A DNA stretch of 64,000 bases, from contig NW_020847607.1 in the NCBI RefSeq assembly GCF_003704095.1, forward strand, positions 620,001 to 684,000, in the 5' to 3' direction. This DNA is from Pocillopora damicornis. Taxonomy: Eukaryota. Position numbers and translations under genes: made by a program. The stretch's first letter is position 1, and every line of letters begins with the position of its first letter. The notes beneath the pieces are model-generated. The model had not been told where the DNA came from, searched no databases, and worked only from the letters and a program-made list of their open reading frames with translations. Positions 17,085 through 64,000 of the stretch are shown piece by piece.

Positions 17085-17300
17085 GTACATCGCGGTTTCC
17101 ATTGCATAAAGCGAACGGGAGTTTACTACTCCTCCTCGAGGGATACCAATCTATCAAATGTCACCCCCTCCCCAGATTGTTCTTCTTGTACTTAATTATA
17201 TTTGTGGCTGTATAGATGCACTGTAGAACTTAAGTGTCCTCCTGTCCACGAATAAAACGCACTGAACCTTCAGGACTGAAACCTATTATTTTTCACCTGA
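17085..17300 (-). mobile_element. Degenerate tRNA-derived SINE copy
   Basis: Weak similarity to 32450-32745 (gcataaagcga...ctactcctcct...aagtgtcctcc). Confidence 0.4.
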
Positions 17301-24301: not shown

Positions 24302-25401
24302 GGCTCCCAAAACCGGATCAATTTCAGAATAGAATCTTTGACACAACTCAGCCTTGACCGTTAACTAACAACGAACCTCCACCCGATCGCAACGGAAACT
24401 TTGAGGTTATACGAAGCACAGAGCCCCCAATTTGAATTTTATATGTTGGGACACCGCACTGCGTCATGGATAAATAACACATGCGCCGGAAGAGGAGCTA
24501 TACACATTACAAGCTATATGTTCGCCTAAAATGGTATTTTTTTTTAAGAAAGATGAGCAGTTTGACCACTTTAAAACTGATTTTGTCTCTGTCTAATTCG
24601 CCTAAAGCACAGTGCATGTAATCTGATTGACTAAAATGAAACAGCGCCATTTTCTAAAACAATTTAGCATAAAGTGAAATCTTTTCAGGACTTGATCACG
24701 AAAATTTCAGAATAAAACCCCTGTCGGCTTTTCATCAACCATTCGATCTGTTTTTATTTGCATGATTTCTCCGCTCTGTTGGATAATCAAGCAACAAGAG
24801 TGAAACAATCGAGTGAGTAATGAAAAAGGTTCATACCATAAAAGGCTAATAGGTTTCAAAGTAAAAAAAAAAAGGGGAAGGCGTGAAAGACTTCTCCTTG
24901 TCATATTTTAGGCAAAATGTTTTCCTCTTTAATTAATACGTTTTTTAAGATTTGATTATTTAGAAGCGAGTAAATCGACAAAGAGAAAATTATTTGAACT
25001 TATCTGGAAGCAGATCACATTAAAAGCAGATTAATTACTTATCTATTAAATTGCACGTCCAGAGAAATGAAAGTACAAATTTCCTAATGAGTTGTTTCCT
25101 TCCGCGAAAACGTCCCTCAGGCTCCGCCGAATACATAGAGAAATAATAACTGTTTTCTGGATTTCACCGATAATTACTACGTCTGTGTACTTCACTTTTA
25201 GATTTGAGATGTTGGTCAGCCTAGAGCCTGGTTTCATTTTCCCAAGTACGGCTGTCATATTTGTTGAACGTTTCTGGCGAAAAATAAACTTGGGTAACAT
25301 TGAATTACATTGACATCGATTAGCTCAGTGCATTTGCTGTATAAGTAATTTACGAATGTTGAAAATTTCCTTTCTTGAGCATAGAGAGGGTGGTACTTTC
25401 C

Positions 25402-26335
25402 TTAACTATAGGGAATTTCATTGAAATCCAGCATTGCTACTGGTTTGGACAGATCGTTTGGGCTTTTTACACCAGCCTTTGAACTTCTCCTGTTATTCCG
25501 TGTCCTTCTCGGTTTTAACTTACTGAGTGGCTCTTTAAAGATAGGCATCCTAAAGCTATAAATAACTGGATTTACGAACGAGCTCGCTATATTAAAAAGT
25601 GTTGTAGCATAGAGAGCACCCATAGATATACGACATTTACATACGGCGTACACAAAGTATAGAATGCTCCCCGGCAGCCAACAAACACAAGAGGCAGCTG
25701 TTACGATGCACAAAGTCTTCGATAGTTTTATGTTTTGTTCGACGTTATTTCGACTATTTCGATTGATAGCCGGGACATCTCTGGAATAAAGTTTATTCCG
25801 AATGCTCCAATAGCTGCCGCAGATTATGGCCAGAGCGGAAAATATCATAGAGCAAATAATGTACTGAGAGATTTCATGACTCCACATTTTGGCTGTATCT
25901 AATAAAAGTAATGCACCCACGAATCCGCCGATAACCCAAACGGTGACAATACACCAAATGTACGATTTGTTCGAGGCGAGCCGATGGCGAAGAGGACAAA
26001 CCACAGCATACGCACGTTCCAATGAGATAAGAACAAGAAAAAATAAGGACGAACACGAAAACATAGTAGGAATTATTGCAGAAAAATCATCTTGGTTTGA
26101 TACGAGGACTTCGTCTGTTTTATTTCCTTGAAATTGCCCCTGTTCCAATGGCGATTGGTTCAGTAGCGCCAACAAGGAGGTCAGCAATGGCCAGGTTTAT
26201 TAGAAGAAACGAGGTTCGCTTCAGACGAGCACGATAAATCCAGAACACATAAATTGTAAAAATGTTCCCGATTAGAATAAAAACGCTTTCAACAGAAATT
26301 ATGCTGCAAATAATGACTACTGCAACGTTTGTCAT
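25402..26335 (-). pseudogene. Class A orphan GPCR 8 with frameshift after TM2 (~26145-26120)
   Basis: TM1-2 (GN, NLAIAD) in ORF 26335-26120; TM3-7 (SLERAY, CWLP, NPVIY) in a different frame, ORF 26187-25402. Confidence 0.8.
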
Positions 26336-31169: not shown

Positions 31170-34100
31170 ATGCAGCGAGTTGCTTTGTTGCTCCTGGGAT
31201 TCATGGCCAGCTGTGAAGGTAAGGCAACAAACGTTTTAAAATATTGGATCACGTTGAAGGCTCATGATCACAGGGTTTAATTTGTTAGTTTATTTTTTAT
31301 TGTTTGTTTGTTTGTTTTCATATATGTTCCTTTCATTTTAAGATTATTTATTGAAGATTCAACTATAGTAAAATTCCGGACTAAGGGCCGACGGATAATA
31401 TCAGAAAACAATTTTCCTTCAAACTGACCTCTCTAAAGAAATTCCTGAGAGAAATTTGGACAAAGCGATACGAAGACTGATTTTAACGTTCGAGTCCAGA
31501 ATTGGAGTACAAAGTTTAAGATCCAAACACCAAATCATTATCGTTTAGTTTTCGTTTGTTTTTCCTTTTTACGCTGTTAAATGTTCATTTTGTATGGCCC
31601 GTGTGGAATTTATCAGGACAAAAAAATATTATGTAATTTATTCGTATTAGTATTCAACGTTAGGTTTAGTCATTTTCCGTTGATAGAGTTAGTTTTTCAG
31701 TCATTTTAGTTTCGCTTGTTATTAGCGGTGGTTTGTTTTCGCAAATCGCGGTTTGGAATTGCATGAAATGGATCCGAAAAACATGATACAGCAACTAATT
31801 TGTGTGTTTCGTTAAGTTCACTCTTTTCTTTTATTAGCTATATTTCGAAATTTTGTGTTTAAAGCTTTCTGTTTTAGTTTTAATCACAATTTAATCTCTA
31901 CACCATAAACGGAGTGGCCATCAGGGTAGAATCTTGAATAAAAGAGAGTTAAAATTGTATGGTAGATATATTACTCGTCTAAAACTTAGCAACAAAATAA
32001 GGTCTCGTTTAAAATTTTTCTCGGGTACAAGTGCACCCTGTTAGGTTACTTACTCGACTCGATATTTCTCAGGGAATAGATAGCGAGTACTATAGCCAGT
32101 AAGGATGCAGCATTTGTTTTAGAACGCCAGTGGATCTATATTAATTATTACATTCGTGTCTGTCATTCTAGGACTTTCACATCTTGTTGGATACTACCCC
32201 CTGAATTTCTCAAGTAAAGCAAATGACTACAGTCCGTCTAAGAATCCAGCAGGGATCATCTCCAATGCTCAGCCTGCACTGGGGCATTATGGCGAAGTTG
32301 GTGGATCGTATCAGTTCACGGGAGCGCGCTCACCGCCAAGTTATATCTATCTTAATGAGTCATATCATTTAAATACGAGGTAAATTAGGTGTTTTTATCA
32401 TATAATATCTATTCGGAAAGGTAATGTAAGGCTGAGAGGCCATTTGCCAAACCCAGCCGAGCTTATGTCAGTTTCTGTAGCATGAAGCGACGAGGGTTTT
32501 TTCCACCTCCCTCTCCTCTCCTCCCCTTCCCCCTCCCCTCCCCTCCGCTGGAAGGGATGCTAGTCCATCGCAAGTGACCCACTCCTGATCTCCCTGACAG
32601 CTATCCGGTGCCCTCCTATAATCGTGAATGGACAGACGTAAGGGTAAAATGGCTTCCTAAGAGCACAACACAATTATCTGGCCAGGGGTGGGAGTTGGAT
32701 ATTTTGATCCGGAGTACACCTTTTCCACTGGCTCGTCGCGCTCCCTTCAATCAGGAAGGTACTTGTAACATAATTTCGAGGCGCATGACCAGATATTTTG
32801 AGTCTAACAATAATTTAAGAGATAGAGGGCAGGATTTCCCTAAGATTCAGTCTCCAAACGTAATGCTCTCCTGGTGTTTGACAAAGAGACTCTTTGCTGA
32901 AGCGAAAGACGATATTACTTTTATACCATATCGAGTAAATAAGCTAACATGATGACTCAGTCGTCAAATAAGTTTACCGTGTTAATACGCAAACGTTTCA
33001 ACTGGCACCAGTGACGACAATGTCTGTCGCATGGAGAACTCTTAAAATTAGATGAGAACGATAAAACTTATGCCCCTTCGAAGCAATTGAAATCCTTCCT
33101 GTATTGTGCCCTCCTTATCTTGCTTTTCAGATTCTCTATTACACTTCTCGTCTGGGTTTTTCCACAAGGCAGAGATGGAGAAATTATTTCCTACTGGAAA
33201 AACTCAAATTACGGAGTGAGTATAACACTTGAAAACTCTCGCCCAGTCTTCCACGTCAATTCTCTTGATCGGATCACGAAGTACTCCGTAAAAAGTAAAA
33301 ACAACCTGTTGCTGAATGAATGGAGTCACATCGCTGGGGCATATGACAATGAGAGTCAAGTGGCAAAACTTTACGTGGATGGAATAGAAGTGGCAAACGC
33401 AACAGCAAAATGGATTCCGGAATTAGCGACAGAGTCCCCTTTGTGGCTTGGGTACCTGTTCAAGGGAAGGCTGTCCCAAGTTTGGGTTTTCAAGAATGCT
33501 CTTTCTTTGTATGATGTATCTCAAATAAAAGATTACCATAGACCATCAAGCTCAAGTAAGCAGACATCCAGTTTTGTTAATTTGTCTTGCTTGGTTTGTC
33601 TCAATGTATATGTTTTGCGGGGTATCACTCCTTAGTGTATGTATGATTCAAACAAAAGACAAATACAGCTGAGCTACGGTAATTTACTTATGAGTTTTCT
33701 TTAGTTAAACAAACTCGAAACACTACTCAAGAGGACTTTTTTAAATTTTACAGGTTTATCGACTGCTATTTTAACACCAGTTGAATTATTACCAACATCA
33801 TCTATGACACCCTCCAACAATCCATTTCCAAACACGATTATCAATCCAACGATAGTCAAGGTACCCAATCCAACGAAAAACACGGAACTCAATCCAACGA
33901 TTACAAGATTGTCCTATCAAGCGACGATTCATAACACGTCAACTGTCAATCAAAGCTTTACGTACGCCACACCCGCTGTCAATCAAACTTTTCAGTACTT
34001 TACGCCCACTGTAAATCAAACTCTTCCGCTGACCGCCTTCCAGACGGCACCATCGGATGCATCGGCAACAGTAAAACAGAATGCTACGTCGGCAAGTCTA

Positions 34101-37100
34101 ACTTTCAACATTACACCATCTCGTACGATTGCTTCGCAATCGATACTTGGAAGTAGTATAAGTCAAGGTAGGGTTAGTGTATTTATTGTGTATTTACGTG
34201 TTAAATACTAACAAACATGTAAAAGGGAAGTTTCGATTCTAGGGAACGGGTAAACACCGCATGCGATCGTCTCGTTAATCGTGCTATGTGAAGTTAATTA
34301 TTACTCCCTCAGATAAGATATTGTGCCATCAAAGGGCATGGCCTCTCCTCTCGTATTTCGTCAGGTTTACTTGACAGTTGGTTGGCACACTGATTTTAGG
34401 CCGAGAGAGGCATGGTGAGAGTAAAGTGTCCTCCCTAAGAACATAAGTGTGAAGGTACTTATTTGAGTAATCTCGAGTTCAAGGCCTATACCCAGAGGCC
34501 ACCGCGTCTCTTGCGATTAATGTACCGGGAGATTTTTCCGGATTTTTAATGCAGATTAAAGAAGGCGGGTATGGTGATAAAAAAAAACCTGTGATTGCGG
34601 ATGCATGATTCTCGGACCGTACTCTTCAAAATTTGTGTTATCAGTCCTGAATCCGAGGGAGGTCCAAAATGGTACTTTTAATTTCAAAAACTAGGAGCCA
34701 AGTTTGACACGCGTTATTTCTTTTGTCTCACAGTCCAGCCCCTCAGGTGTTATGAGTCCTTATGCCAAGGATCAATGATCAATTGCAGTGAAAATAACTT
34801 GAAACAAAGAGTTTGTGAGCCGAGTGACGATCGATGTGCCTGGGCCTATACGCGACTTAATTCAAGTTTTCAAGTTCTGCACATGAACTGCACTTCAAGC
34901 AATTTATGCAAAGACGCTGGCCCGTCATGTGATCTGCTGATGAAAAACAGAGATGTGTGCTGCGACTATTTGTGTTGTGACTCACCACTTTGCAACAAGC
35001 CGAAATATTTGCAAGGTAGGCTAAGTTCGCGTAAAAAGCCTACAACGAAGGCGTCTTTGCATACACTGATTGTGGCTCCTTTGACCGGCTGCGGGGACTA
35101 AAGGGGGAGGAGAGGCAGTAATAAAAAACACAGGTTCAAAAAAAAGGAACTTACGTCTCACGTGTAGTATTATCGTTCCTATAATTTCTAAACCAATTCG
35201 GAATAGAGAAGTTTTTCGAATGAGTGTCGCTAGCGCAGTTTTTAAATGAGTGTCGAACGTAATCTGAAATTTCTTTGGTTTTGCCTCATTTTGCTTTGTG
35301 ATTGGTCCAGGAAAAATCGCGTCAACCAATCAGATGCAAAACTAAAACCAATCACGTCTTAGTCGCCCGCGTTTTCCCGCGCGTTTTTTTACTTTGAACC
35401 CTCATCGGTTCTTCAAGGTGTTTTCCTTATTTCTGATTGGCTGTTGTAATTGGTTTGGTTTTGGCTTTACGACAATCCAATCAAAAAGCTCTCTAGCTGA
35501 TATCAAGTGCAGAGAAACACAAGGGACTAAGTCGCGCTTGAATTCAGTTTTGCAATTGATTGATTCATAAGCGAGGGAGCAGGAGTTCAAGTTAAACAAT
35601 CAGAGAGCGTAGAAAAGCAAAACCAATGCAATCGCGGGTTATTTTCAAAACATGAGTGAAAAGGGCTTAAAATTATGTGTAGTCTGGTTGATCGATTGCT
35701 CTGAGCCGGAACAAAAAATACAACAAAAGAAACAAAAAGAATAGAGCCTAATTTTTGAATGGTCTAACCCATCAATTAGCAAGTTTTTTTCATTCACACT
35801 TTTTTCAGGTGGGAAGTCGTGCAAAAGAAAACCCGATCTCGTCGCGGTCATCTACGGAGGCATTGAGGTCATCCGAGGACATAACGAAAGCATCACAATG
35901 AATGCGTCGCTTTCATATGACCCGGACGTTGGCATCGGTGACTACTCGGGAATGAACTTTACCTGGTTTTATGGCGAGATTACAGGCAATTACACCGGCC
36001 TACAGACAGCTACGAATGATAGTCAGACAGGGTTAGACGAGTCGATTATTCGTTATTTTGGGAACGATTCTGGTATAGAAATCACCTTTAATACAGCACC
36101 ACTGCTCCTCAACAGGACATACGTGGTTAAACTGGTTGTCTCTAAAGACTATCGCGACTCGAGTGCATATCAAATTATTCAGTTGGTGAAAGGAGACCCA
36201 CCTGAAATATACCAACGGTAAGCGAGTTGTTTTGTGCCGTTCAGTCAGATTGAATTAAGCAACTGTTAACAAAATTCGTTGTATTTACATACACAGTTTT
36301 AGATTGCCGCTGGTTAAGTGCAGTGGGCGCGGTTTCCCACACCATTTTTACCAAGTTTTTTTGACGGAACGATTTTAAGGTAGTTCTGAGAACGTAGTAA
36401 CTACGAATCATGGGATAGCTCCTCATAAGTAGAATGCTGTAGTCGTTGTTAAAAAAGTTCAAGCATTCTGGACGCATTCAAGTGATTGTGTTTCTTTCCC
36501 CTAAGCGCAGCTGTCCGCCACACAACCGTTAAGGTTAGAAATGAATATTGTTTACGTTAGAAATTTTTCTCCCTCGTCAAAAGCAATTGAAATACTTAAT
36601 TGACTATTAACTTGCCTATCCTTGACGAGCAAGTTTCGTCATGCACCTGAGCCAAGAGCCATCCAGCTTAAGCCGGCGACATACCCGGCGATTTAAACGC
36701 CGATCGGCAAAAATCGCCAGGTGTGCTCGATGCAATGATTGCGATTTTCCCCGATCGCGGCGATCAAATTTGCCGCGATTGGCCGATAAAATCGCCAGGT
36801 GTGTCGCCGACTTAACTCTCCAGTTATTTGTCATAATGTTTTGCCATTTTTTATTTTTAAGATGCCTAGTAAACTGTGGACTGAAAGTTGTTCCACAAGT
36901 TAAACTCAGTATTCAGTCACAATGCCAGGGGTCCCTGTGCTCCAATATATCTTCGTATGAGTGGATACTCTATGAACAATCCTCTTCATCTGCAAACAAC
37001 GGCATCTGGATTCGAAAACAACATTTACAGCTTATCACAGACACACCACTCGGTTCAAGTAATATCGTCATCAAAAAAGGTTCCCTCTCTGGGAGAACAA

Positions 37101-40100
37101 ATTACCGTCTGGCATTGTTTGTTCAAACTACCGCCGGCTTACCAGGGATGAGTGCATACGACATATCCACTACGTCAGCGCCTACAGGGGGCACATGCAC
37201 GATCACTCCCTCCAGCGGCATCTCTCTGAAAACTGACTTCAACCTGACATGCAGTAACTGGAAAAGTGACAGCATACCTCTGTCCTACCAGTTTCAACAT
37301 CAACTAGAGAACGGTCTATACAGTATGTTGTTTCATGGTTTTAACAACACGGTTAGCTCTTGGTTACTGCCTGGTAATCTGTCGGAAAACTTCACTGTAA
37401 AGGTCAAAGTGATAATAACTGATTATGTTGGTGCCTCTGCTGCGGTGACAAATTTGTCTGTGCAGGTACGACTTTATGTTTCCAGTTGTTTTGGTCATGA
37501 CGTCATTAGGAAGAACTGATGACGTTATAAAATTATGATATCATTGCGAAGTGACCATTTTTGTGAAATTAACACCCATATTTTCCATTTCTTCAGCTGT
37601 AAAGAAGGTTCGAGGTATTCGTTTAGTAGAGGGGGCGTGAGTTTTGAACGATTCGTTATCCGTTATCCGAACCTCCCTTATTTTTTCTTATTTCTTAAAG
37701 AAAAGCCTGGAAAAAGCAAGCGTTTATATTTTGTAGCATGATTATTTTGATTGCTAACACAAGCGAGTTGGTCAGTGAATTGTGATCGTATAGATTGTAG
37801 AAATTTTTAGAATGTCATTACTTTGTTGAAGCGAAGGGGATTTTTCTTCAAATCCCCCAAGGGGTAGAACTATTCCTATTGACTCTGAGATATAGTAAGA
37901 TTAGTTTCTGCTGTGGCCTTTATTTTTTCTTTTCTTACAGTCGATTGGTTCATGTTTGACTTTCTGTAGGTGAAGCCATCGGAGCTTTTGAGACCAGAAA
38001 ACATCAGCAGCTTTTTGACAGCTAATGATAGTTTACTTAATGACGTCATCCAGGATGGAGACTTAAGTAGAGCTGCACAAATTGCAAATTCTGTCCTCCA
38101 GACTGTTTCCCAGGATAGCACCGTGAGTTTACAGAATAAGGCTAAAGTAAGTCAGCTTGATGTTGAGTTAGTGATTGAGGTGAAAATTGCTCCGTAAACA
38201 GCACAATTCTTTTATCCTCGTTACTCTCACCATTGTAGTTAAAATTTTGTCTTTTTGGTAAGGGGGGAGGGGTGGTGAGCAAATTTCAATCCATACAACT
38301 ACGATTAAATTGATTCATGAAACTTACACAGTGTCTCAGAAGTGTCTTCTTTCATCTCCACAGATTCAAGATTTTCTGATCAAAAAGATCATCTCTCTAC
38401 CCGTGCAAAATCTTCCAGACCTTCTCCAAAGCACGTCTGTAATTGGCTCTGCTTTACAGGTTTCGGAGAGAGTGTCCTCCAACACTCTGGTATGGAAATT
38501 GTTTAAAAAAAAATGAGCATTTGATAATGAGTATTATCAACATTTACGATTGCTCTCTATCTTTGAAATTTTAGGAGTCCGCGATGTCTGCTGTTGGTTC
38601 AATGACATCACTTCTCTGGAGAACCGCCCAGTTAAAAGAAGTGGCCTATATACCGCTAGTCACGCAGTCTGCAGAGAACCTGGGCACATGTCTCAATAGT
38701 GTGTTGAAAACTGGAGCAGTAATAGCGTCAGGAGATTTCGGCTCTGGGCTTCAAGAGCAGGTATAATGTTAAGAACACCTGAGCGATCATACATATTTCA
38801 TACAATAGGCTAACTCATACATGTGTTTTGATTGGTTCTTGTCTATACAACCTATTAGAGGACAGACGCATAGATGGCGTCACCGTCAACAGATTTTGTT
38901 TCTTTATTATATAGAAAAAAATATTCTCTGTCTTTGTGGGTCTGTGCAATTGGAGATCACAGAAGACATAGAAATGTGCTAAGACAAAGAGTCTGAAATG
39001 ATCAAGGAACATGGGAATGAGAATGGGAAGAGAACCTATGATACTCACAAACTTTTCAGCTAAGATTGGTCGACAGGCGTTGTTGCTACGTTATACGATC
39101 ACTTTGATGATCGAATAATGACCGAATTTTGAGTATTTTCAAGGGCAAAAGGATAATGCTTCTACTTCGTAAAAGTCGTTCATTTTAAGTGCAAATTGTG
39201 GATACATCTTTAATCTTCAAAAAACCGTGTGTTTATTTAGAAGTACGCACTTTTAAAACTCCGAACAGTAAGTTTTATGAAGCCTGGTGGGCCAATTTTG
39301 GCCCATTCTTCTCTAGTTTAGGGCTCTTCAAAGCGAGGTCGCGATCAAATTTGCCGCTTTATTCTGCCCGATGTTTTTAAGATTTGATAAACTGCCTGTG
39401 TGCTTATCTTTACAGGGTGTGAAATTCGTTAAGACCGCGATGCAAACAATTAGTTTAGTTGCTGACGCAGTATTAGCTGTTAGAGCCCCGGATGAGGGCA
39501 TGATCTCCATATCAACGAGGGAGCTGAGCATGACCTTAGGACGCCACAGCCCCGAGAAACTTGCGGGGTTGAGGATCGAAGCAGCGGGCGGGGTAATTGT
39601 TCTTCCTTCTGACAGCCAATCATTACAATTTACTGTCACTGCAAAAGGTTACATTGATACTCAGGTAAGCATGCTTATCAAAGTATTCTCAGAGTCATCT
39701 TAAGAGCGAATAAGACATGCTATTGACTGTGTGTGTGGGGGGGGGGGGGTCAGTCAGGAAAAAGTTTTGGTTCGTGGTCTTGGGAACCAATTGGATTTTT
39801 CTTAAGAATGTAACTCAAGGGCAAAAAGATGTAGGTGACCGAGCCACGATTTACTTTTGCATCTGATTAGTGGAGGGTGGCGCATAAGTTTTACTTGACC
39901 AATCACAGACCTTTGTAAGGTAAAATAGTAGCAATGTCTGTTACTTTTTACACTCAATTGAATTCTATTTTTAGCTTTTAATCATTCATTTATGGCAGAT
40001 GTTGTCAATTCCATTCAACCCCTACACTTGGGACGGAACAAGGAAGCGAGTCAACTCTGATGTCTTAGCTCTCGACTTAAAAGACGAAACGCGTAATGTG

Positions 40101-43100
40101 ATTAAAGTGTCAAATCTCTCAAGCGACATCATCATCGTTACATCACTACAGCCTCAAGTCATCGCCTTGGAGAAGCCGCAGTATTTTACCAAAAATGAAA
40201 ATCTACGTTTTCATGAGATAGATGTTGAGTTCGAAAACACTCTGGTAAAGCTGGAAATCACTCCACAAGAGTCCACTGTAAGTCTGTTTGTTTACTTGCA
40301 GTATGATCAGCGGCCAACTACAAAAGTGCATGAACTCAACGCTACTATGTCTAAGTACTCAAGATGTGTTTGGACGTCAAGTGCGCAAGACAAAAACGAG
40401 GGCGAAACTGAGTGTTCATTTAGTCCATTTGAACCCATCGAATTCTTAGCTAAGAGTCCTGGAAAATACTTTCTTGGTGTAAAGATTTCCAATGCCAGCT
40501 TGATTATTCCCATTAAGAGGCGTAAAAGATCTTGTTTCGGACAGGGACGGCAAAAGCGCTCCTGCGTCGAAGTCAAGGACCCACCGCCCACCCCATCCCG
40601 GGGCGAAAATGTATCAGTGGTGCCAGTTTATGACTCTCGAACGGATTATAACTATACTCTGAAGGTAGCCCAAGAGAGCTGTGTGCACTGGTCAGAGGAG
40701 CGAGAAATGTGGATAACGGACGGCTGTCAGGTACGCTTAGGTCATATCAACTCGAAAAACGCGAGAGATCTCCAAAGGCATGTCCCTATGCCTACTGAAG
40801 GCATGTCCGTATGCCTGCTGAAGGCATGTCCGTATGCCCTCTGAAGGCATGTCCGTATGCCTTCTGAAGATGATCGCAGTTGCTAAAAGAACTGTAGTCT
40901 GATTTTTCGTACTTTCCAAAATTATTTTGTACTGTTCAGTATTTTCATATAATCATCATATGTAGTCTGAAAGAAAGTGACGAATAAATTTTTTTGCTTT
41001 TACTTGCAGGTTTTATCTGCACAATTAAATGGATATCTCAACTGTTCTTGCAATCATTTAACTTCGTTTGGGGGAAGCCTTTTAGTGAAACCGAATCCCA
41101 TCGACTTCGACAAGGTCCTGATCGAATTCAAGAAACTGGGAGAGACTGGAAATGTTGCCGTAATTGTAACAGTGGCCGTAGTTTTTCTAATCTATATTTT
41201 CGTGCTTGTTATCGTCCGGAAAGCAGATAAAAAAGACAAGAGGAATGTAAGTATGATTGATAGCAATATGTTTTTATTTGTTTATGGGATAAAAATACAT
41301 TTCCTATGTTACAAGTTAAAATCTAAAGTGTACAGTGTATAAAAGATGTAAAAAGATCCCCTATTCTAGTGCTAAATTATATTTAAAGACTAATCTATTT
41401 ACATAGGTACTCTTAGAGTGGACCGTGTTGAACCCGGGTTTTTCAGAGGATTTCCTACTAAGGTTATAATGGGTCGATTTTATTCTAAGTAGAAAAGGCA
41501 GGAGAGGATAATTCACAGTGTTAGATACTTTCTTGAAAATGTTACGGTCTTGTGTTTCCAGAAGGTTATGGACAGTGATATGTTAGAACAGAACTGACAG
41601 CCACATAGTATACTCTATGCACAAATTTGTCTACGCTGAGTGGCAAAAGTGCCAGGAATATTCCGTCCCTTGACTAAAAAAGGCTTTTGACTGCGGAGAT
41701 TTTTATTCAGTTTTAAACCCTTCCTACCCCCGAAAACAAAAAAAAAGCAAACAATTCTGTATATTAGTGAATTCTCAGGTCTGATAGAAAATGAGAAACA
41801 TTGTATTCGAGTGGGAAACTACGGGTTCAACCAGAAAGGAAAACAATATGGCGTGCCCGGACTTTTGACGCTGATTGAAGCCATTTTAGAAACTGACCCT
41901 TGTCCCCTCCCAAAAAAAACTAACAAAACAAAAACAAAGAAAACAAACAAACAAACAAAAAACCAAACAGAATGAACCATAACTGCCCATAATTACCTTT
42001 AACTCGTTAAGTGAATGAAATTATCTAACTCTAGGTTGGAGGATATTTCATTTTTAGGAAAAGGCGCCTGTTCATAGAATTGTTAATGAATATCTTCATT
42101 TGTATTGCTTTCTAGAATGGTGCGCCGATTCAGTTACCTTCGGCGTCGAATAACTTGCAAGAATTCGAGATAACCATTTCTACAGGTGTCTGGAGAAATT
42201 CTGGCACAACGGCCAGGGTTGCAATAGAAATTTACGGAACTAATGAAAGCACTGGTATTCTTGAGCTCAGCCCGGAAGAGCCTGGTGCAGAGAATTTGTT
42301 ATTTTCTCGAGCTAACACAGACGTGTTCGTTCTTAAGGTTAGCAATCCTCTTGGCACGATTCAAGGAGTGCGCATCGGTCATGATATCTCTGGAGAGAGT
42401 CCTTCGTGGTTTCTAGAAGAAATTATGATTTTAGACAAGCAGTTTAACAACTCTTGGACATTTACGGTTAATCAGTGGTTTGCCCTTGAACGAGGTGACG
42501 GTCGAATCGAGCGTACCTTTGAATTAACGCCCAGTCAACTAGATTTCAACCAGGAGGTCATGAAGCGATGGTGGAAAGGCCTCACTGAATCACATATTTG
42601 GGTTTCAGTTGCAGCAAAGCCACGAAAAAGCCGCTTTACAAGAATACAGCGGGCGTCATGCTGCCTCTCTGTGCTATTAACGGCTATGCTCGCTAATGCG
42701 ATGTTCTATCAATTGGATGGTGGCACTGAAGAGGTCTTTCAAATTGGACCTCTAAAATTTTCGTGGAGACAAGTAATTATTGGTATTGAAAGCGCGTTAA
42801 TTGTGGCACCAATTAACGTTCTCATAGTATTCCTGTTTCAAAAAGGAGGAGAGAGGTCAGAGACCAGCACTGGTCGTTTTTCTAAAGCAACCCTGTTGAT
42901 ATATCTTGCTTGGTTTTTGATCATCTGCGCATGTGCAGTTTCGGCGGTGTTTTCAGTCTTCTACAGTCTGATGTGGGGAAAGAGTATCAGTGAAAAGTGG
43001 CTTTCCTCAATGCTGATATCGTTCAGCCAGGATGTAGTAGTCACTGAGCCTGTGAAAGTTTTCTTCATGGCGATGTTTGTAGCGGCTATTTTCAAAAGGA

Positions 43101-46100
43101 AAGAAAGCAGAGGAAAAGGATATGAAAGCATCGAGGAACCCCAAAGTAGCCCCTCAAAACAAAGGTTATGGAATCTAGAATTATCCAAAGTGGAAGAGAT
43201 GAGAAAGAATCAAGCCAGAAAACAAAACATTTCGCAGTTTTTTGTGGACCTTTTTCTTTATCTTATTTTCATTTTTTTGCTAATGGTGGTTTGTTATGGT
43301 AACAGAAATGACCATCGATATCTCATGACAAAGTCCATCCGAGAAGGATTACCAAAGTTTAGCACGGTGGGTAATTTCATTACAAGAATTGCTGTAGTTT
43401 ATCATCAAAAGAAGTCGCATCCATTATCACAACCCTTTACACTCGGTTTTCTGCCTTTGTTGATATACCAAAAATAGAGAGAGGATGAAAGCAGACTAGA
43501 ATGAATCAACTTTGGAAAATTATTTTGTATCACTTGCTCAGTCTTTCTTATCACCTTTACAATCCGTTTCCTTGGCTCTACTCCTGTTTAAAAAATTAAT
43601 TACGCGAACTCTGCCATATTTGAACCAGCTTATTTGCGCGCAAAATGTTTTTACGTACAAACGATAATTTTCATCGTGTTCTTACGAAACACATTGCTTT
43701 CTCTTACTTCATCACCCAGGTACTGAACGATAAGGAGTTTTGGAGGTGGTTAAACGATGTTTTCATACCTGGCGTGTTTGTTGGCAAATGGTACAATGGC
43801 CAAGAGGAGAATCAAACCATGTACATAGGTGATAAACATTCTCTGCTTGTAGGAATGGCGCGAGTAAGGCAGCTGAGGGTGAAATCAAGTAAGTTTCGTC
43901 GTCAGTTTTCCCAAGACCTACCAAACAACCCCATTTAACCCATACGTCATCCAGTGGCTTCAAACTCATGGATAAATTAGTTTATACGACATTGGGTAAA
44001 ACTTAGTCGTGTACACAACACAGAGTTTAGCATAAGATATATTCATGTATGCTGCACGGGATGAAATACTGTCAAGAACTACAATCTTAGTTGTTCATTA
44101 CTGCCACAGCTTATTCCATTTGCTATACCATTGAGGAAGAAGTATGCGTATGGTCTACAAACTATACAACTTTTCATCTACACCCATGAGAGGTTTATTG
44201 CAAATTATAGCACTGATCACGTTTTGTGATTCCAAAACATGACATTACTTAATGAAAATTGTCTCCAAATAAGCGATGATCATGCGATAAACGCCCCCAT
44301 TTTTAATCTTGCCTAGCAACCAGGCCGTTTTCCTGTTAGATTACCAACTTTTATCATGTCCCAGATCCTAGCAATCTGTTTTAATAATAAGGATTTACTC
44401 TAGAAGGCATCCTAGCCCTTGACTCGAATAATGATCTGACGACTAAGTGTGAACCGCTTTCTTTGCTTTTTATCGTGGATAGTGGTCTGTGGAGGAAAAA
44501 ACATTTTATTCCTCCACAGACCGCTCAAAGGGCAAAAAATCGAGTCAAAACTGATCATCTTTCCTTTTATGTTATTTTTTAATTTTTTCAGCCCCGTGTA
44601 AAGTCTTGGACTATATGAAAACTACCTTTCCGACATGCTACGAGGGATTCTCGCAAATTAACGAAGACAAGACTGTATTTCATAAACCGGGATGGAACCC
44701 TGTCGATAACTCTACGAGTGATGACGAGCTGCTCCGACTCTGTCCGAAGCCATGGCGATACCAAAATGCTGACACAGCACCAAAGTGGGGAAAGTTCTCG
44801 TTTTATTCAGGGGGAGGATTTGTTGCAGACCTCGGATACGATACTTCCACCGGATATAGCATCGTTGAGAACCTTAAGAGTTATTACTGGCTGGACAAAC
44901 AAACCAGAGTTGTTATGATGGAATTTGCCGCGTTCAACCCATCCGTAAACCTTTTAACTGTTGTGACGTATTTCTATGAAGTGGAAGCATCCGGGTACAA
45001 GGTGCCTTTCACAAGAAGTAATATTATTTCTTTGAATTCGACGGAAACAGCATCTAATGAGTTTTATCTGATCTGCATACTTTTGTTCATCGTGTTCATT
45101 CTGTTCTTCCTCGGAAGAGAATGCTATAAGCTTTATAGGCAACGCTGCAGATATTTCAAGTCCATCTGGAATTGGATCGAAATCGCTCAGATTACTTTCT
45201 CTGTTTCAGCTGTGGTAATGTATATTTTACAAACGATCAGGGTGTCTGCAACGATCCAGAAATTGCAACAAAACATTTATGCGAATGTAAGCTTTCAAGA
45301 AGCTGTCGTTTCGCTGGAAGTGGAGAATGCAACGCTTGGAATTCTCACTTTTATCGTCATTTTGAAACTGTTGAGAATGATTCGGTTTAATTCTCATATT
45401 GCAGTGTTTTCTAAAACTCTTCAGACATCCATGCGTCTTCTTTCATCATTCAGCTTCAATTTATTTATCATTTTTGTTGCTTTCTTGCACTTCGGCATTT
45501 TGATTTTCGGGAATGGATCTGAGTTTTATTCGTCGATTCTTAAGGGAACATACTTTCAACTCGAACTCACTCTGGGACGAGTGAAAGCGAGGCCTATCAA
45601 TACTTTAGCAGAAGCAAATGAAACATTTGGAAGAATCTTCGCTGCTCTACTACTATTAAGCCTTACTATTCTATCCATGAACTTTTTCATCGCTTTAATG
45701 AATGAAGCACTTTTTGAGGCAAAGGATTCAGTGAATCAAAGTGAACTTTATGATCTAGTGGATGCATACGACTGGCCAAGGAATGAGGAGAGGAGGGCTT
45801 TATTCGATGTGGTTAGTAACGCTATGAAACGGATGAAATTCCAGCAAACCTCCACCGCGTTGGAAGAAACAGAAGTAACAAACGTCGCCTTAAATTCTAA
45901 CAGAAACAAGTCAATTCATTTTGATTTAATCAGCAAAGCCATCACAGCTTTAAGGAAACGGAAGGTCCAAGAATCGGTACATGAAAAACCAAGAAACATC
46001 AGAAGAAAATCTCTCTTTGATAGAATAAGTTCTATTATCCAAAAGCGTAGAGATGATAGCTCTGAAGGAAACTACAGACCAAAAATGAAAAAGAAAGTGA

Positions 46101-46309
46101 ACTTTAGAGACGATGTTGTTAAATCTCAACTGAAGAAGTTACATAAAACGAAAAAGGATTTATTTCATCGATTGGATAATATTGTGCAAGGATATTTTGA
46201 GGAGGAAGAGAAATTTCATATAATATGTCACGAAATAAAAGTGTATGGCTCTCAGGATGATCTGGGAAACGTCACGGTCACGGGGACTGAGAACGAATCA
46301 TTTTCTTAA
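31170..46309 (+). CDS. Polycystin-1-like (PKD1L/REJ-type) protein, ~2411 aa; exons 31170-31218, 32172-32379, 33131-33555, 33754-34167, 34734-35015, 35809-36217, 36862-37465, 37970-38146, 38364-38489, 38575-38760, 39416-39664, 39999-40730, 41010-41246, 42116-43366, 43720-43888, 44592-46309
   Basis: Signal peptide MQRVALLLLGFMASCEG; LamG-like; S/T/P-rich; Cys-rich LU-like; REJ (NASLSYDPD, PTGGTCTITP); GAIN/GPS (CVHW...WITDGC...CSCNHL/TSF); TM1; PLAT (TGVWRNSGTTA, SPSWFL); FTRIQRASCCL; polycystin channel domain (YSGGGF, WLDKQTR, MNFFIALMNE). Exons sum to 7236 nt in one open frame. The link of the 5' exons to the REJ core rests on splice phase only. Confidence 0.9.
32450..32745 (-). mobile_element. 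tRNA-derived SINE (MIR/CORE-like central segment)
   Basis: ctgtagcatgaagcgac...gggatgctagtccatcgc...aagagcacaacacaa...gatccggag; same family at 34300-34510 and 60895-61135. Confidence 0.6.
34300..34510 (-). mobile_element. Degenerate tRNA-derived SINE copy
   Basis: gagagaggcatggtgagagtaaagtgtcctccctaagaaca...gaggccaccgcgtctc. Confidence 0.5.
35231..35494. mobile_element. CCAAT-rich MITE-like repeat copy
   Basis: Aligns with 6910-7145. Confidence 0.65.
36672..36811. mobile_element. 140-bp GC-rich MITE with ~23-bp TIRs and TTAA flanks
   Basis: ttaa-gccggcgacatacccggcgattt ... aaatcgccaggtgtgtcgccgac-ttaa. Confidence 0.75.
40774..40869. repeat. Four tandem copies of a 23-bp self-complementary unit
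   Basis: gaaggcatgtccgtatgccNNct x4. Confidence 0.85.
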
Positions 46310-57697: not shown

Positions 57698-58925
57698 GGA
57701 TCAATTTCTCGTTGGTTTCAACCGCACAACCAATTGCAGGAGCTGAACGCTACGGGCTGATTTGTGGGAAAAGAAACAAAGTTTAATCTTATATCTTGAA
57801 TCTTACGTTTTCTATTGCATTTTATATGTAAAATTAAGAGGAGTCCTTGAAGTAAAGATGTTACGTACGGTAGTTAAGCCCAGTTTGAAGTAAAACGCCA
57901 TTTTGTTATGTATCGTGCATTGGTTTTTACCAGTAGTATTTTGCCATCACAAAGCAATCCTTTTGTTGACATGTTGGAGAAATCTTCTGCCGAGGTTGAA
58001 AAACAATCTGGAGTTACAATGGTTTTGCTAAACTTCGCGCAACTTTATCGCCATTTTGAGGTCCAAAGGCATGAATTTTCATTATTTTTTCTACAATAAA
58101 CAGGTCTTTAACTGAGACAATCTCCCAATCAGGAATTTAAACATTCCCTCGTTTAATTTTCTCCAAAGTAGCTACAAAATTGTCTTTACAATTATTCAAG
58201 ATGTTGGTAACTGGTAGTTGCTACAAAAAAGTAGTTTCGTGCAAATTCTTAGATCAATAAATAAAGTTCCTACTAGTTTAGTGCTTTGTACTTGAAATTT
58301 CCATTCCGACTGTCCCTAAATTAACAGTCCATAGTTACTGTTATTTTTAAATACCATTACTAAAAAAATTCACGAGAAGCTTTTCTGCAAATATATTTTA
58401 CTCAATAGGTAAGTCTGTCCCACACGACCCACCTACGAATAGAAACAAACTCCTGTGCTGTGGTGATGGACTGAGCCTCGCTTATAATGAAAAACATTAT
58501 TTAGTCCATTCCTGGGTTCTATCCATGCGAACCTAAAAATTACTACTGATAAACTGACTGCTAAACTATAAAAAAGGTGTTGAATAAAACTGAGGCGTTT
58601 TTAACTGTGTGCTTAAATTAACGTCTAAGCAAATTATATTTCTACAAGGTTAAAAGATATCCGTCCGTCTCTCGAAACGTCGGCGCATAAGTCTATCGAC
58701 CAGCGGTCGGTAGACTAGTGTCCTCTCGTCTTGCTGGTAAACTCTCTGATAACAATCAAGCATATCGGTGAATTGCGATCAAAAAAGGTGCATTTTAGGG
58801 TATTTAAGAAGCACTAACGTTGACTATAAACTGAAGAATTTGTAATCCGGCGAATGAATTTGTAATCCGGCGGGAAAGAATGCTGCCCATTTAGAATAAC
58901 TTACTTCCTCGCGTAAGTAAATACT

Positions 58926-61900
58926 CTAATACTTAAAGTTTTCGTTCCTAGTGCTTAACACTCCTCTGATCATGGCCTCCTCTTCGTCATCCTCAAGATC
59001 GAGGTCATCATTTGAGATCAGCATCGGTACCGGCTCCCTACGAGCATCGGCCCCGCCGCAGAATTTACGGGCTTTCTCAAAATGAAACAAATGACCACGA
59101 ATCTTGTACGCGAAAGAAGCGTACAGTAAGCCGCCTGTTCCAACTGCGCCCACAGACATCAGTGCCAACAAACCGAACGTCTCAGGCTTGGGAAGAGCTA
59201 TAACTAAGCAGAACATGAGAAGGCTTAAAATTGAGTTGAAAGAGTTTTGCATCCCGCCCACAATTCCTCTCTCTTGTTCTGGTACTGCCTCTTGGGTGAG
59301 TTGGGTGATGGTTAAATCAGACAACCATAATCCAAGGCGGGATGAGACGATCCCTGCAAGTAGCAAGCTGATGGAGACATATGAAAAACTGTTGCTTACG
59401 GCCTGCGGCATAGAGGCTGTTGTCTTCAAACTACAGTTGCGGTTTGAAGGAGAAGAAGTAGAAGGAGAGACGACTGAATTGGAAGGCACCACACTGGGTG
59501 TGGTCTTGGATGGCAAAATGGCTGTTGTGGATGGTATGGCTTGTGTTTTTGATCCATTCACCCGATTAACAACGGACGGCACTGTGACACTTGGTAAGGA
59601 CATTCTTGCCGTCGTTACTGCATTATTACTATAGTTTACAGCTCTTCTCATAAACTGCAAATTTGAAGGATGAACGTTTATAGAGGAATTCCTGGGCCCT
59701 TCATCTATGCAACTGGGAGAGAGAGTTGGTGTGGGAGTTGTCTGCTGAGGTGCCTTACACTGGGGCAGCACAGGTTGCCCTGAATTTCTCGGTAACAAGA
59801 AAAATGGCGAACCAGGAGCAAAGACAGCAGCGACACACAAAAGAAGGCAAGAAAACTGAAGAGACATGGAGAAAAGCCCGCAGCGAACAACACCAACAGC
59901 ATTTCTCAATCGGGGAAAAACAAATGTAGCAAAGACACCAAACAACGAACCAATGCCTCGTATCAGACTCAGAACTGACTCAGACAAACACTGCGTGTAA
60001 GCGTAACCAGTTGTTATGGCGCCAAACGAAATCACAGTGAAATACAACGAAGCCAGGGCAAGCCCAGGTCGGGCTACACTCTGTCTAAAATAAATGTGCC
60101 ATCCTATTTCAAAGGTCAGGATCCTTTTCTTAAATCGTGCATAGACACTTGGCTTGGGTTGTCTTTGAACGGGTCTGACAGTAACAGCTGGGACCAAAAC
60201 CTCAGCGCCATTCTGGCCCCTTTCTTGGTCTTCGTTTTCCATCCTTTCCAAGCGCTCATTAGATCCGTGAGGTTCATCAGCAGACATATCCACGGAAGAG
60301 TTGTCTTCAGTGTTAGAGTTGTGTCTTGTTGTGTCTATGACCTTGTGAGACAGGGCAGCCACGGCTTTGAAAACTGTCCAGAGAAGATAGTACTCTCCAA
60401 AAACCGATACAACATTCCAACCCGCTAAAAACAACACACCTGCCATTTTAGAGATGTAAGTCATCACCTGACCAACTACGATCGGAGCAAGGATCTTGCA
60501 ACAAAGATCAATTCTTCTCATCAATGCATTTGTACCTAAAAAAAATATGTTAAACCGTAGTTAGATCAGCCAGTCTATATGCTTTGGAATACGAAAATAA
60601 AAAGAGAACAAAACCAAAGACTGTCATTAATTTTGCACATAGTTCTATGTGTGATATATTGCTAGAATTTTTTTCAGTGATGTTTGTCATGAAATGACAT
60701 TCAAAGAATTTTTTTCTCATTTTTTTTTCTGGGTGAATCAAGGTTTACCAAGCCACAATCACTGGTTTTGTCAAAACACAGAGACAAGGTCCCAAACCAA
60801 ACTGCAGATGTCTCTGTCAATGCATATAGGGATGGGCCACTCCATTATGGAATGGGGGAATAAACAAGTAAAGGAACAGAAGGAGTGAAGAGGTGAAGTG
60901 GCTCAAGCTACTGGTGCTTATCTTCAGTTTTTGTGGCATGTAGTGACTTAGACTGCTCCATCTGCATGTAATGCAAGTCCATCACAAGCTATCCCATAGA
61001 ATTTTGTTAGGATTTCTGGTCAGTTTGCTGGAACCCATTTATTATACTGTAAGGGTGGAAAGAGGTACTGTGAGTGCAAAGAATCTTGCCATAGAACACA
61101 ATACAGCAACCCCTTGGGGCTCAATCCCAGATCTCTTTGAGAAAAAAAATTGACAAATATGCCTTTTTCAGCTGAAATACAATCATGGAAATTCAAATAT
61201 TTAATTGTCCACTTCCAGCATACTTACTTGCCAGTAGTGATTTATCTGAGCCAGCAATCACTACCACCCAGTCCTTCTCTACAGCAATTTTTGTGCCAAC
61301 ACTAGACAAGTCAGCTACAGAGCCAATGATGATAATGTTGGCTTCCAGCAACATGGTGTATGGATGTTGGATGTGCTCCTCTAATTTTAACATAATCAAC
61401 AGCAAAACTCCACAGATTATCACCGCAACATTTTGAATTATCAATGAAATTTGTGCCACTGAAACAAAAAGTGAATGTAACGCTCAAAATATTTTAATAA
61501 GCTATGTTTTGATGAGCAGTTATTAGGTGGATATTTTTTTTCTTATGTAATTTATACTCTTCAGTAAAACTATATTTTAGTCTTTTGTTCCTGTTTTTCC
61601 ATTTTTAAAGGTTTACTGACCAGCAAGTTATTCAATTCACTAAGAGACTGATCTGCTCAGTTATCAACTGTATTCTTCACTCACTAACTGACAAACTGAC
61701 TGGCTGGCAGACAGGCACACTGACTGACCGCTGGATTGCCTTCATGAAAGCTTGACCACCAAACTCATGGTGAAACTCACTGACTGATTGATGGATTGAC
61801 AGACTGATTAACTGACTGGCTCTAAGAAGAAATGTCTGACTCAGTGACTGACTCACTGACTGATTGACGGACTGAATCATTGATTGACTAGCTGACTGAT

Positions 61901-63135
61901 TGGGTGATTAAATGTCTGACTGACTGACTGACTGTGATGTAATGACTGACTCAGTGACTGACTAACTGATTAATTGACAGACTCAGTGACTGACTGACTG
62001 ACAAACCTTGTGAAAGAATGACTAACTGAGGAACTGATGACCAACCAACCTGCCAAATGATCTGTCTGTCTATTAGCTCAGGTTGCTTGCTGAAGGATTG
62101 GTAACTTAAGCCAGTATCATATTGCTGCATTCAAACTTAACATACCCTTCAGTCGAGGAGTTCCATCCACCCAATCTCCAACTAAAGGTCCAAATATGAT
62201 AATTGACAAGGTACTGATCAGTTGATAGATTGCTGTTAAGCGCAATGATCCTGGAGTGAGTTCAACTAGATACAGTCCAATAGCAAAATGCCACATGCGA
62301 TCTCCCTGCAAAAAACAAATTTTATGCAAGTGATTAACATGATTAAACAATTATAGCACGTCAAGTAGAGTTGGAGAATTTTTCTTAAAATAAAAGCCCA
62401 TCTGCTTTCTCATAACTAGTACATAAGTTGCTAACAAGTTTGTTGACACGTTCCAGAAGTAGGAGACAGATAACGAAATTTATATCTTTATATGACAATA
62501 CCATGCACCCTGGTGGCGTAAATGTCAAAAATAAGCGTCAGATCTGACGATATGGCTATTTTCAATATAATTGCTTTCCTTTAATTAACTTCACATACTT
62601 GCTTTTCTCCAGTTATGAATATGAAAACTAACTTACACTATAGAGCGATATATACCTGGAAATATAAAAAGGAGGAATCAGGAATGATTCAGCGATCAAA
62701 CCGCAGGGAAACTGAGTGTAATTAGCGAAGAACTAAGATAAATTGACGTGAAGCTGTTCACTTACCCAAGCGGAAAACAAATGACTGATACAAACAAGAT
62801 GTAGGGGCGAAATTTTACTACACTTCGCGGTAGCTTGCCTTCCTGCGGATAGGACGTTTAAAAAAGAAAGCTGTAACAAAATGGGATAACTTTGCGTAGA
62901 TTAATTTGGAAATATTTCGATAGCTAAACGGAGCAATAGAATTTTAGGTGAAGAATCTTGGAACTACTTCCTCTGCACTAAAATATATGTAAACTCGAAT
63001 ATTGTCTGCGTTGCAAAAGTGTCATTTGACAACAGCAATAGCCTCCAACTCACCGGCTGGCGTATTCCTCCGTCGCCCGACATCCGATCTCTCGCCGGAT
63101 TCTATTAGCGATTCTTCACTCTGCCCTTGCTCCAT
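58926..63135 (-). CDS. SLC40A1: Ferroportin (solute carrier family 40 member 1), ~719 aa; exons 63135-63054, 62842-62766, 62305-62146, 61458-61228, 60535-58926
   Basis: SHLFSAWGDRMWHFA, GDWVD, EKDWVVVIAG, NALMRRID, ITTGYAYTQ, PGSP, SRLGLWLSDLTITQLTQE, ERGIVGGMQNS; 2160 nt open frame. Confidence 0.95.
60895..61135 (-). mobile_element. tRNA-derived SINE copy in ferroportin intron 4
   Basis: gggtggaaagaggtactgtgagtgcaaagaatcttgccatagaacacaatac. Confidence 0.55.
61675..62045. repeat. Degenerate (ACTG)n tetranucleotide microsatellite in ferroportin intron 3
   Basis: tgactgactgactg runs across ~370 bp. Confidence 0.85.
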
Positions 63136-63183
63136 TTCTCGTCGGAATACAGGAAATATCGCAAAGTATCACAGTGGTATTTA

Positions 63184-63191
63184 CTTATATA
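63184..63191 (-). promoter_or_regulatory. Candidate TATA box of ferroportin
   Basis: TATATAAG on the minus strand ~50 nt upstream of the ATG. Confidence 0.4.
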
Positions 63192-64000
63192 ACTGCTCAG
63201 TCGAGCGCTAACTTGCTCCACACTCGAGGTTCTTTCCTTTCATACTACTCAGCGGTATTGTAACTAACAAATAGAAATGTGGTGTAGTGTTCATATAGTG
63301 GTTTCACTTGTTGAATCTATGAAAACCGACTGGAAAGAAGGAACTACAAGATGAGACGAAACACTGGAGACTCAGGAATTTTTAGAATATTGTATGCCGG
63401 CACCTAATATAAAGGGAGGATAACGATATTAAAAAATAACCAAAAGAGTCAAAATATTTTTTTCTTTCTTCTCCAGTCTTGTTTGTAGAGCTGTTAAAAT
63501 ATTTACAAAAAATATTAATAGCATCAACCGAAAGGGAAAAATGACGATTCGTGACTTTACATTTCGAACTACTGTGTAACTGAGGGGTTTGGGAAACGAT
63601 TTCTGGTCACGCAAAACGACTTGAAGCGACCGAACCCTCCCTTTTGATCCGCAACTGAAACTTTGGTAACGAAGTGAGGCTATAAATATTTATGATCATT
63701 AATGGAGTCAAATAAAGACGGTCAAAATATGTACAGAAAACTTTATTAATCATGACCCAAAGAATTGAATTCATTATGGTTTCATATGTATGCTTTAAAT
63801 AAAGGATAGATCGGAATGACGCTAAGGCAGAAACTTTTCTCAACGTAAACTTACTGTCTCACCTCTTATTGTCACCGAGTATTCGACAAGAGCTAGAAGC
63901 CGTAATGGACCTCTGACATTATGTAAATTCGCAGCCTTAATATGCATGACCAGCTGTATTGTTCAGCAAATTTTGATGTCTGCAGGTGTCTGGCCAAATT

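What the first reader, a model, noticed from the sequence alone, without database searches (positions are those of the whole stretch)
59210..61320. Ferroportin lacking the entire C-lobe metal/hepcidin site while keeping the N-lobe site
Seen, using recalled human numbering: D39/H43 (GDRMWH) and N174/R178/D181 (NALMRRID) are conserved. GFDCITTG has become SFGAITTG (D325G, C326A; 60018-60023), NYLLDLLHF has become NSILSLLMF (Y501S, D504S, H507M; ~59214-59234), and N144 is D. Established: D325/C326/H507 form the second metal site and hepcidin contact, and variants at N144, C326, Y501, D504 and H507 cause hepcidin resistance. Inference: a naturally hepcidin-independent, single-site transporter, possibly with a different substrate (Ca, Mn, Co, Ni) or coupling. 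It is a natural test of which site is essential.
Basis: partly seen in the sequence, partly recalled or inferred. Interest (0 to 1): 0.7.

Follow-up and report, generated by a model that had tools for sequence, protein, structure and literature searches.

The report
Coral ferroportin missing second metal site
This stony coral's only detected ferroportin gene is intact and spliced and keeps the first metal site and the calcium site of the human iron exporter but has none of the four residues of the second metal site, so it likely exports metals through one site, probably with more room for nickel and cobalt, and could help settle which site human ferroportin needs.

Summary
The residue changes are real. 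The five-exon, 719-aa gene is spliced in 4 of 4 RNA contig sets. It keeps D39/H43 and the Ca2+ site but has G325, A326, S501, S504, M507 and D144. It is the only ferroportin found in this genome. The same ligand-free C-lobe occurs in 33 of 33 scored stony-coral-clade hits.

Hepcidin independence is not news. C326 and hepcidin are vertebrate-only (PMC8235187), and C326 occurs in 3 of 147 family representatives. Plant ferroportins (117 of 117 with G325, none with C326 or H507) transport Fe, Co and Ni.

The full state is less common. Only 18 of 136 representatives lack all four ligands. A vertebrate-type D39/H43 beside an empty C-lobe was seen only in stony corals and one tunicate-like protein. 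Octocorals keep D325/D504/H507, Nematostella keeps only D504, and stony corals keep none.

Best reading: a one-site exporter of Fe/Co/Ni with a likely shift towards Ni/Co, because human D325A loses Fe efflux and gains Ni efflux (PMC6079014). No transport was measured. The scan earlier noted site loss in arthropod-like ferroportin paralogues, a different case.

The parts
63054..63135 (-). Exon 1 (start codon, cytosolic N-terminus)
   Evidence: N-terminus matches the Desmophyllum protein P0017
62766..62842 (-). Exon 2 (start of TM1, S35)
62146..62305 (-). Exon 3: GDRMWH, N-lobe site S1 (D39 62302-62300, H43 62290-62288); motif A G80/D84/R88
61228..61458 (-). Exon 4: Q99/N100 (Ca site), N144D (61312-61310), D157 gate
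58926..60535 (-). Exon 5: TM5-TM12 and C-terminal tail, with N174/R178/D181, N185K (60497), N212, E219, R466, D473, Q481, E486, R489
60018..60023 (-). TM7 unwound region: G325-A326 in place of D325-C326
59958..59960 (-). TM8 Arg at human M346, shared with plants, Nematostella and (by alignment) BbFPN R284
59214..59234 (-). TM11: S501, S504, M507 in place of Y501, D504, H507
59376..59798 (-). Long Ser/Thr-rich TM9-TM10 loop (141 aa, 29% S/T, 4 N-glycosylation sequons); low pLDDT in the orthologue model
58968..58985 (-). Acidic dileucine-like EEEAMI motif in the cytosolic tail (possible endolysosomal sorting signal; motif definition recalled, untested)

Best explanation
This is the intact, spliced SLC40A1 ferroportin of a pocilloporid-type stony coral, and it likely works as a one-site exporter of divalent transition metals (Fe2+, Co2+, Ni2+) with a probably higher Ni/Co-to-Fe ratio than human ferroportin. 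Shown: the N-lobe site (D39/H43), the Ca2+ site (D39, Q99, N100, N212, E219) and the intracellular gate (R88, D157, N174, R178, D473, Q481, E486, R489) are all present. The C-lobe has no side-chain ligand at 325/326/504/507, and it carries the K185 and R346 typical of plant IREGs. Inferred: metal is captured in the inward-open state at D39/H43, helped by D181 and possibly by the coral-specific D144. It is released after the rocker switch without passing to a high-affinity C-lobe site. The C-lobe pocket, still formed by the broken TM7 and R466, would act as a gate or bind an anion or chelate rather than a bare ion. H+ coupling would be weaker, because only H43 is left. Hepcidin control is absent because hepcidin is a vertebrate hormone.
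For: Residues and gene model. Fold and broken TM7 kept in the Orbicella orthologue (75% identical to the window model): mean pLDDT 72.5, Foldseek top 8 hits are human or tarsier ferroportin with target TM-score 0.88-0.93. The state is fixed in 33 of 33 scored stony-coral-clade hits and in all named corals, which fits a maintained working gene. It is the only FPN locus in six searches of the genome. Plant relatives with G325 and no C326/H507 (117 of 117), including the P. gabriellae protein P0275, belong to a family reported to move Fe/Co/Ni (PMC12987785 listing and passages; PMC11890741 section 11). Human C326, D504 and H507 single mutants still export Fe (PMC8232785). The tarsier S2 double mutant still transports Co, more slowly and with weaker H+ coupling (PMC7655804). 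Human D325A/H abolish Fe efflux and raise Ni efflux (PMC6079014).
Against: No transport data exist for any coral protein. Mutating human D325 is not the same as a natural G325 in another background, and D325A also lowers surface expression in HEK cells (PMC8232785). Plants keep D/E504 (116 of 117) and have A39/E43, so they are not an exact analogue. BbFPN has H261 at the D325 position, reported as critical for metal binding. G325 changes to D in 3 of 113 scored stony-coral cluster members (two Montipora proteins and one window-like protein), so the position is not tightly constrained. The raw co-occurrence of R346 and K185 with loss of C-lobe ligands failed the phylogeny-aware test. The role given to D144 is conjecture: D/E144 occurs with an acidic 504 in 12 representatives and without one in 5.
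Confidence: 0.45

Rival explanations
1. An ordinary iron-preferring exporter. The C-lobe ligands serve mainly regulation and fine-tuning in vertebrates and drifted away in hexacorals without changing selectivity.
For: It is the only FPN found in the genome. Human C326, D504 and H507 mutants export Fe normally. Position 325 toggles G/D within corals. Hydra, a nematode and a choanoflagellate also lack all four ligands.
Against: D325 sets Fe versus Ni selectivity in human FPN. Being single copy does not imply iron: the A. fumigatus homologue handles Ni/Co/Ga and not iron (title and passages). No iron-responsive element was found near the gene.
Confidence: 0.27
2. A Ni/Co detoxification or storage transporter that loads an endolysosomal compartment (possibly the symbiosome in symbiotic species) and has little role in iron export, like fungal FpnA or AtIREG2.
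For: G325. Plant-like K185/R346. An acidic dileucine-like tail motif in 39 of 44 hexacoral proteins versus 1 of 77 others. No IRE. The genome has urease-family matches, so a nickel enzyme is likely present.
Against: The sorting motif is recalled and untested. It is also in the non-photosymbiotic Nematostella and Desmophyllum (their lifestyle is recalled), so it is not symbiosis-specific. The main text of the Aiptasia symbiosome proteome preprint does not mention iron, SLC40 or metal; its supplements were closed. Vertebrate-type D39/H43 is kept.
Confidence: 0.18
3. It exports a metal-carboxylate chelate. The more positive cavity (K185, R346, R466; D325 and D504 lost) binds the organic ligand, as the BbFPN pocket binds Ni-EDTA through R348.
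For: BbFPN Ni-EDTA structure and the authors' suggestion of metal-anion co-transport. The R466 equivalent is kept.
Against: No physiological chelate has been shown for any FPN in the papers read. Covariation of the basic residues with ligand loss is not supported once relatedness is counted. I had no coordinates to test whether K185 or R346 face the pocket.
Confidence: 0.06
4. Mainly a Ca2+ uniporter, for example for calcification, with transition-metal export lost.
For: All five Ca-site residues are kept. The human S2 double mutant keeps Ca2+ transport (PMC9883014).
Against: The Ca site is conserved family-wide (N212 in 134 of 144, E219 in 139 of 143 scored representatives), so keeping it says nothing special. 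H43, which Ca2+ transport does not need, is kept in every full-length stony-coral protein compared.
Confidence: 0.04

Closest known systems
Human/tarsier ferroportin SLC40A1 (PDB 6w4s, 6wbv, 8dl6-8, 8bzy, 6vyh)
   Same: Fold with broken TM7, D39/H43, Ca site, intracellular gate, R466; 43% identity to a bat orthologue.
   Different: G325/A326/S501/S504/M507, D144, K185, R346. No hepcidin, no IRE found. TM9-10 loop of 147 versus 66 aa between anchors. Acidic C-terminal tail. 42 of 42 vertebrate-type hits have D325/C326/Y501/D504/H507.
Plant IREG/FPN1-2 (e.g. Psychotria gabriellae protein P0275; AtIREG2 and OsFPN1 from the literature)
   Same: G325 (117 of 117), R346 (117 of 117), K185 (105 of 117), S501 (113 of 117), no C326 or H507.
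   Different: Plants keep D/E504 (116 of 117) and have A39/E43 (109 of 117) instead of D39/H43.
Bdellovibrio BbFPN (5aym, 5ayn, 5ayo, 6btx)
   Same: No Cys at 326 and no D504/H507 equivalents; Arg at the 346 position by sequence alignment. Transports Fe/Co/Ni/Mn in liposomes.
   Different: H261 at the D325 position is a metal ligand; D28 stands in place of H43.
Sea-anemone and octocoral ferroportins (Nematostella P0515, Paramuricea P0055)
   Same: Same cnidarian branch of the tree; Nematostella shares G325/K185/R346 and the tail motif.
   Different: Nematostella keeps D504 and has E43/V144; Paramuricea keeps D325/D504/H507.

Membership tests
Ferroportin / SLC40 (PF06963) | Profile match over the curated cut-off | tested here: met
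   Exon 5: 299.7 bits against a cut-off of 24.6; exons 3 and 4 also over the cut-off
Ferroportin / SLC40 (PF06963) | 12-TM MFS fold with discontinuous TM7 | tested here: met
   AlphaFold2 model of the 75%-identical Orbicella orthologue, not of the window protein itself
Ferroportin / SLC40 (PF06963) | Intracellular gate and Ca2+-site residues | tested here: met
   residue lists
Ferroportin / SLC40 (PF06963) | Export of divalent transition metals | not testable with these tools
   needs flux assays
Vertebrate hepcidin-regulated FPN1 | S1 site D39/H43 | tested here: met
Vertebrate hepcidin-regulated FPN1 | S2 / hepcidin site D325, C326, Y501, D504, H507 | tested here: not met
   0 of 5 present
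Vertebrate hepcidin-regulated FPN1 | Hepcidin gene in the genome | tested here: not met
   best match 20.7 bits, under the 27-bit cut-off; search is exon by exon
Vertebrate hepcidin-regulated FPN1 | 5' iron-responsive element | tested here: not met
   no IRE family match in 58600-64000 at E<=5; no CAGWGH loop in the transcribed UTR stretches
Plant IREG1/2 subgroup | A39/E43 in TM1 and D/E504 | tested here: not met
   the window has D39/H43 and S504; it branches with cnidarians

The most novel reading that the evidence does not exclude
Stony corals carry a natural S1-only ferroportin, a human-type D39/H43 site with a fully disarmed C-lobe. It has switched to nickel and cobalt and is sorted by its acidic dileucine tail to endolysosomes, in symbiotic species the symbiosome, where it meters Ni/Co (and perhaps little Fe) to the algae. 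Reef corals would then lack a conventional iron-exporting ferroportin.
Probability: 0.1. Interest if true: 0.75.

Novelty: new variant of a known kind. Interest (0 to 1): 0.42.

Why it matters
Published work disagrees on whether S1 or S2 drives metal export in ferroportin. One 2025 model makes the S1-to-S2 affinity step the source of outward direction (PMC12594662). A stably folded, naturally selected animal protein with human-type S1 and no S2 ligand is a cleaner test than destabilised point mutants. Montipora (D325) and Nematostella (D504) supply natural intermediates. It also bears on how corals handle iron and nickel. The value is as a test reagent and an evolutionary note; hepcidin independence itself is already known.

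Tried and rejected
Assembly error or pseudogene: rejected. Misalignment: rejected. A second, S2-intact paralogue in the genome: not found in six searches; the only other match was 24% identity, E 0.092, with stops. This is not proof of absence: a control with Nramp returned only one exon-sized match under the cut-off, so many-exon genes can be missed.

Co-evolution of R346 with loss of H/K/R507 or D325, and of K185 with loss of D325: raw tables were strongly skewed (R346 vs H/K/R507 6/33/84/14; K185 vs D325 33/18/28/58). Independent pairs on the tree gave no support (median sign-test p 0.25-1; for R346 vs D325 the trend ran the other way). I dropped it as evidence. D144 as a replacement for D504: no family-wide pattern.

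IRE: none found. Papers on coral ferroportin: searches returned none that discusses its residues or function; the library lacks most subscription papers. Arg284 is not mentioned in the two BbFPN papers. N185, M346 and N144 were not found by those spellings in the vamifeport paper. The window row printed came from a wrong-frame file and was ignored; the correct row is. No complex prediction was run.

Full report
Gene. The region is the minus-strand ferroportin gene (PF06963). Five exons (63135-63054, 62842-62766, 62305-62146, 61458-61228, 60535-58926) give 719 aa with no internal stop. All four introns are skipped in 4 of 4 RNA contig sets from 3 studies. The closest named relatives are Stylophora pistillata (85% over exon 5) and Desmophyllum, so the source is a pocilloporid-type stony coral; this is inferred from homology. 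Searches of the genome with the Pfam family, a salamander, an octocoral and an unnamed divergent FPN, and two conserved exon pieces all returned only this locus. A Nramp control shows such searches can miss many-exon genes.

Observation. Also kept are R40, G80, D84, R88, Q99, N100, D157, N212, S215, E219, Y318, T320, Y333, R466, D473, Q481, E486 and R489. An AlphaFold2 model of the Orbicella orthologue P0225 (75% identical; alignment of 51 sequences) has mean pLDDT 72.5 and keeps the break in TM7. Its 8 best Foldseek hits are human or tarsier ferroportin and the next 4 are BbFPN. No coordinates were available, so nothing here measures distances.

How general is the state? Stony-coral clade: of the first 34 hits, one with an aberrant C-terminus (P0031) was dropped. 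The other 33 read GASSM (25), GASGM (7) or SASSM (1) at 325/326/501/504/507. Named Acropora, Porites, Orbicella, Desmophyllum and Stylophora proteins agree; two Montipora proteins have D325. Among listed members of eight stony-coral clusters, 3 of 113 scored have D325, including one in the window's own cluster. Vertebrate-type hits: 42 of 42 have DCYDH; three of these are unnamed. Plants: of 120 listed hits (295 found), 3 tandem fusions were left out. All 117 have G325 and R346, none has C326, Y501 or H507, 116 keep D/E504, and 109 have A39/E43.

Whole family. The best 150 of 6679 representatives at 50% identity were scored; this set is biased towards animals. Among rows with a residue in the column: D325 81 of 147, C326 3 of 147, D/E504 106 of 141, H507 25 of 141 (K in 62), D39 87 of 114, H43 7 of 126. 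Of 139 rows with all four C-lobe columns filled, 3 misaligned rows were dropped. Of the remaining 136, 2 have C326+H507, 51 lack D325, C326 and H507, and 18 have no D/E/H/C at any of the four. Named ones among the 18 are Hydra vulgaris, Ditylenchus, Salpingoeca and Balamuthia. None of the 100 rows scored at both sites combines D39+H43 with an empty C-lobe; the coral representative lacks its N-terminus there. Outside stony corals I saw that combination only in P0104, an unnamed protein in the tunicate branch.

History. A FastTree tree of 79 sequences and 417 columns, rooted on plants, puts the gene in a hexacoral clade (support 1.0) within a cnidarian clade (0.987). Octocorals have D325/D504/H507, and most medusozoan-branch proteins keep D504/H507. 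Nematostella has G325/D504/I507 with E43. Stony corals also lack D504 and have H43 and D144. Loss of H507 on the hexacoral stem and of D504 on the stony-coral stem is the simplest reading. Whether G325/K185/R346 were kept from a holozoan ancestor (the choanoflagellate and plants have them) or regained is not resolved: deep nodes are weak and no clade test was run. The apparent covariation of R346 and K185 with ligand loss did not survive independent-pair tests.

What is known. Nemeth and Ganz state that hepcidin has no antecedent before fish and that invertebrate ferroportins lack C326 (PMC8235187, passages). No hepcidin passes the Pfam cut-off in this genome. S1 = D39/H43 and S2 = C326/H507, with D325 and D504 adjacent (PMC7655804, passages and section 10; bioRxiv 2020.03.16.993006, passages). 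The tarsier S2 double mutant transports Co more slowly than the S1 mutant, and both lose H+ coupling. Human C326, D504 and H507 single mutants still export iron, while D39A and D325 mutants do so poorly; D325A/H also lower surface expression (PMC8232785, part 1 of 5 and passages). D325A/H abolish Fe efflux and raise Ni efflux in oocytes, and BbFPN binds Ni-EDTA in the C-lobe pocket (PMC6079014, passages and section 9). The Ca2+ site is D39/Q99/N100/N212/E219 and does not depend on S2 (PMC9883014, passages). A 2025 paper proposes that the S1-to-S2 affinity step drives outward flux (PMC12594662, parts 1 and 3 of 6). Plant IREGs move Fe/Co/Ni (PMC12987785, listing and passages), and fungal FpnA handles Ni/Co/Ga but not iron (PMC11890741, passages and section 11). 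That P0275 is the tested PgIREG1 rests on its species name and my recall of the accession. Passages only were seen of PMC11817551, PMC4633820, PMC10030120 and PMC12869516. Searches found no paper on coral ferroportin residues or function.

Mechanism. Shown: an intact transporter scaffold with S1, the Ca site and the gates, and no C-lobe ligand. Inferred: one-site alternating-access export through D39/H43, weaker H+ coupling, and selectivity relaxed towards Ni/Co (0.45). Rivals are human-like Fe export (0.27), Ni/Co loading of an endolysosomal compartment (0.18), metal-chelate export (0.06) and Ca2+ uniport (0.04). For the compartment idea, an acidic dileucine-like motif lies in the last 35 residues of 39 of 44 hexacoral proteins and 1 of 77 others. 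The motif definition is recalled, two of the 44 are one Nematostella gene, and the symbiosome proteome supplement that could test it was not seen.

Verdict. It is a member of SLC40, not of the hepcidin-regulated vertebrate kind. Lack of the hepcidin site is known and general. The complete, fixed loss of D325, D504 and H507 beside a human-type D39/H43 in an apparently single-copy gene is a modest new variant and a usable natural test. Interest 0.42.

Noticed in passing
window 60023-60021; proteins P0128, P0191, P0192: G325 is replaced by Asp in two Montipora proteins and in 1 of 15 listed members of the window's own cluster. In the window's GGC codon this is a one-base change. These look like independent natural gains.
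   Followed up: partly
window 58985-58929 (-): Conserved hexacoral C-terminal tail: acidic run, EEEAMI, then a conserved RNENF-type end.
   Followed up: partly
window 12747-26196: Tandem cluster of about nine single-exon ORFs that look like rhodopsin-family GPCRs; 4 of 4 tested match PF00001.
   Followed up: partly
window 33015-46309 (+): Polycystin-1-like gene: laminin G, REJ, PLAT and PKD channel domains.
   Followed up: partly
window 58843-58865: In two RNA runs a second, deeper contig ends at 58865 and overlaps the ferroportin contig's end by about 23 bases. It is probably the 3' end of a convergent neighbour; contigs do not show strand.
   Followed up: no
window 60201-60274: One RNA run shows a 72-base in-frame skip in the TM6-TM7 loop (letters between not known); it may be an allele or an assembly artefact.
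   Followed up: no
window ~61680-62060: Intron 3 holds a degenerate CAGT/CAAT microsatellite that attracts unrelated contigs.
   Followed up: no
G000:C3382:747756-748212: Two exon-sized matches to the urease alpha family over the cut-off, suggesting a host-encoded nickel enzyme.
   Followed up: no
family representatives: Position 507 is Lys in 62 of 141 representatives, including the named mollusc proteins, and His43 is rare (7 of 126). Neither human metal site is family-wide.
   Followed up: partly
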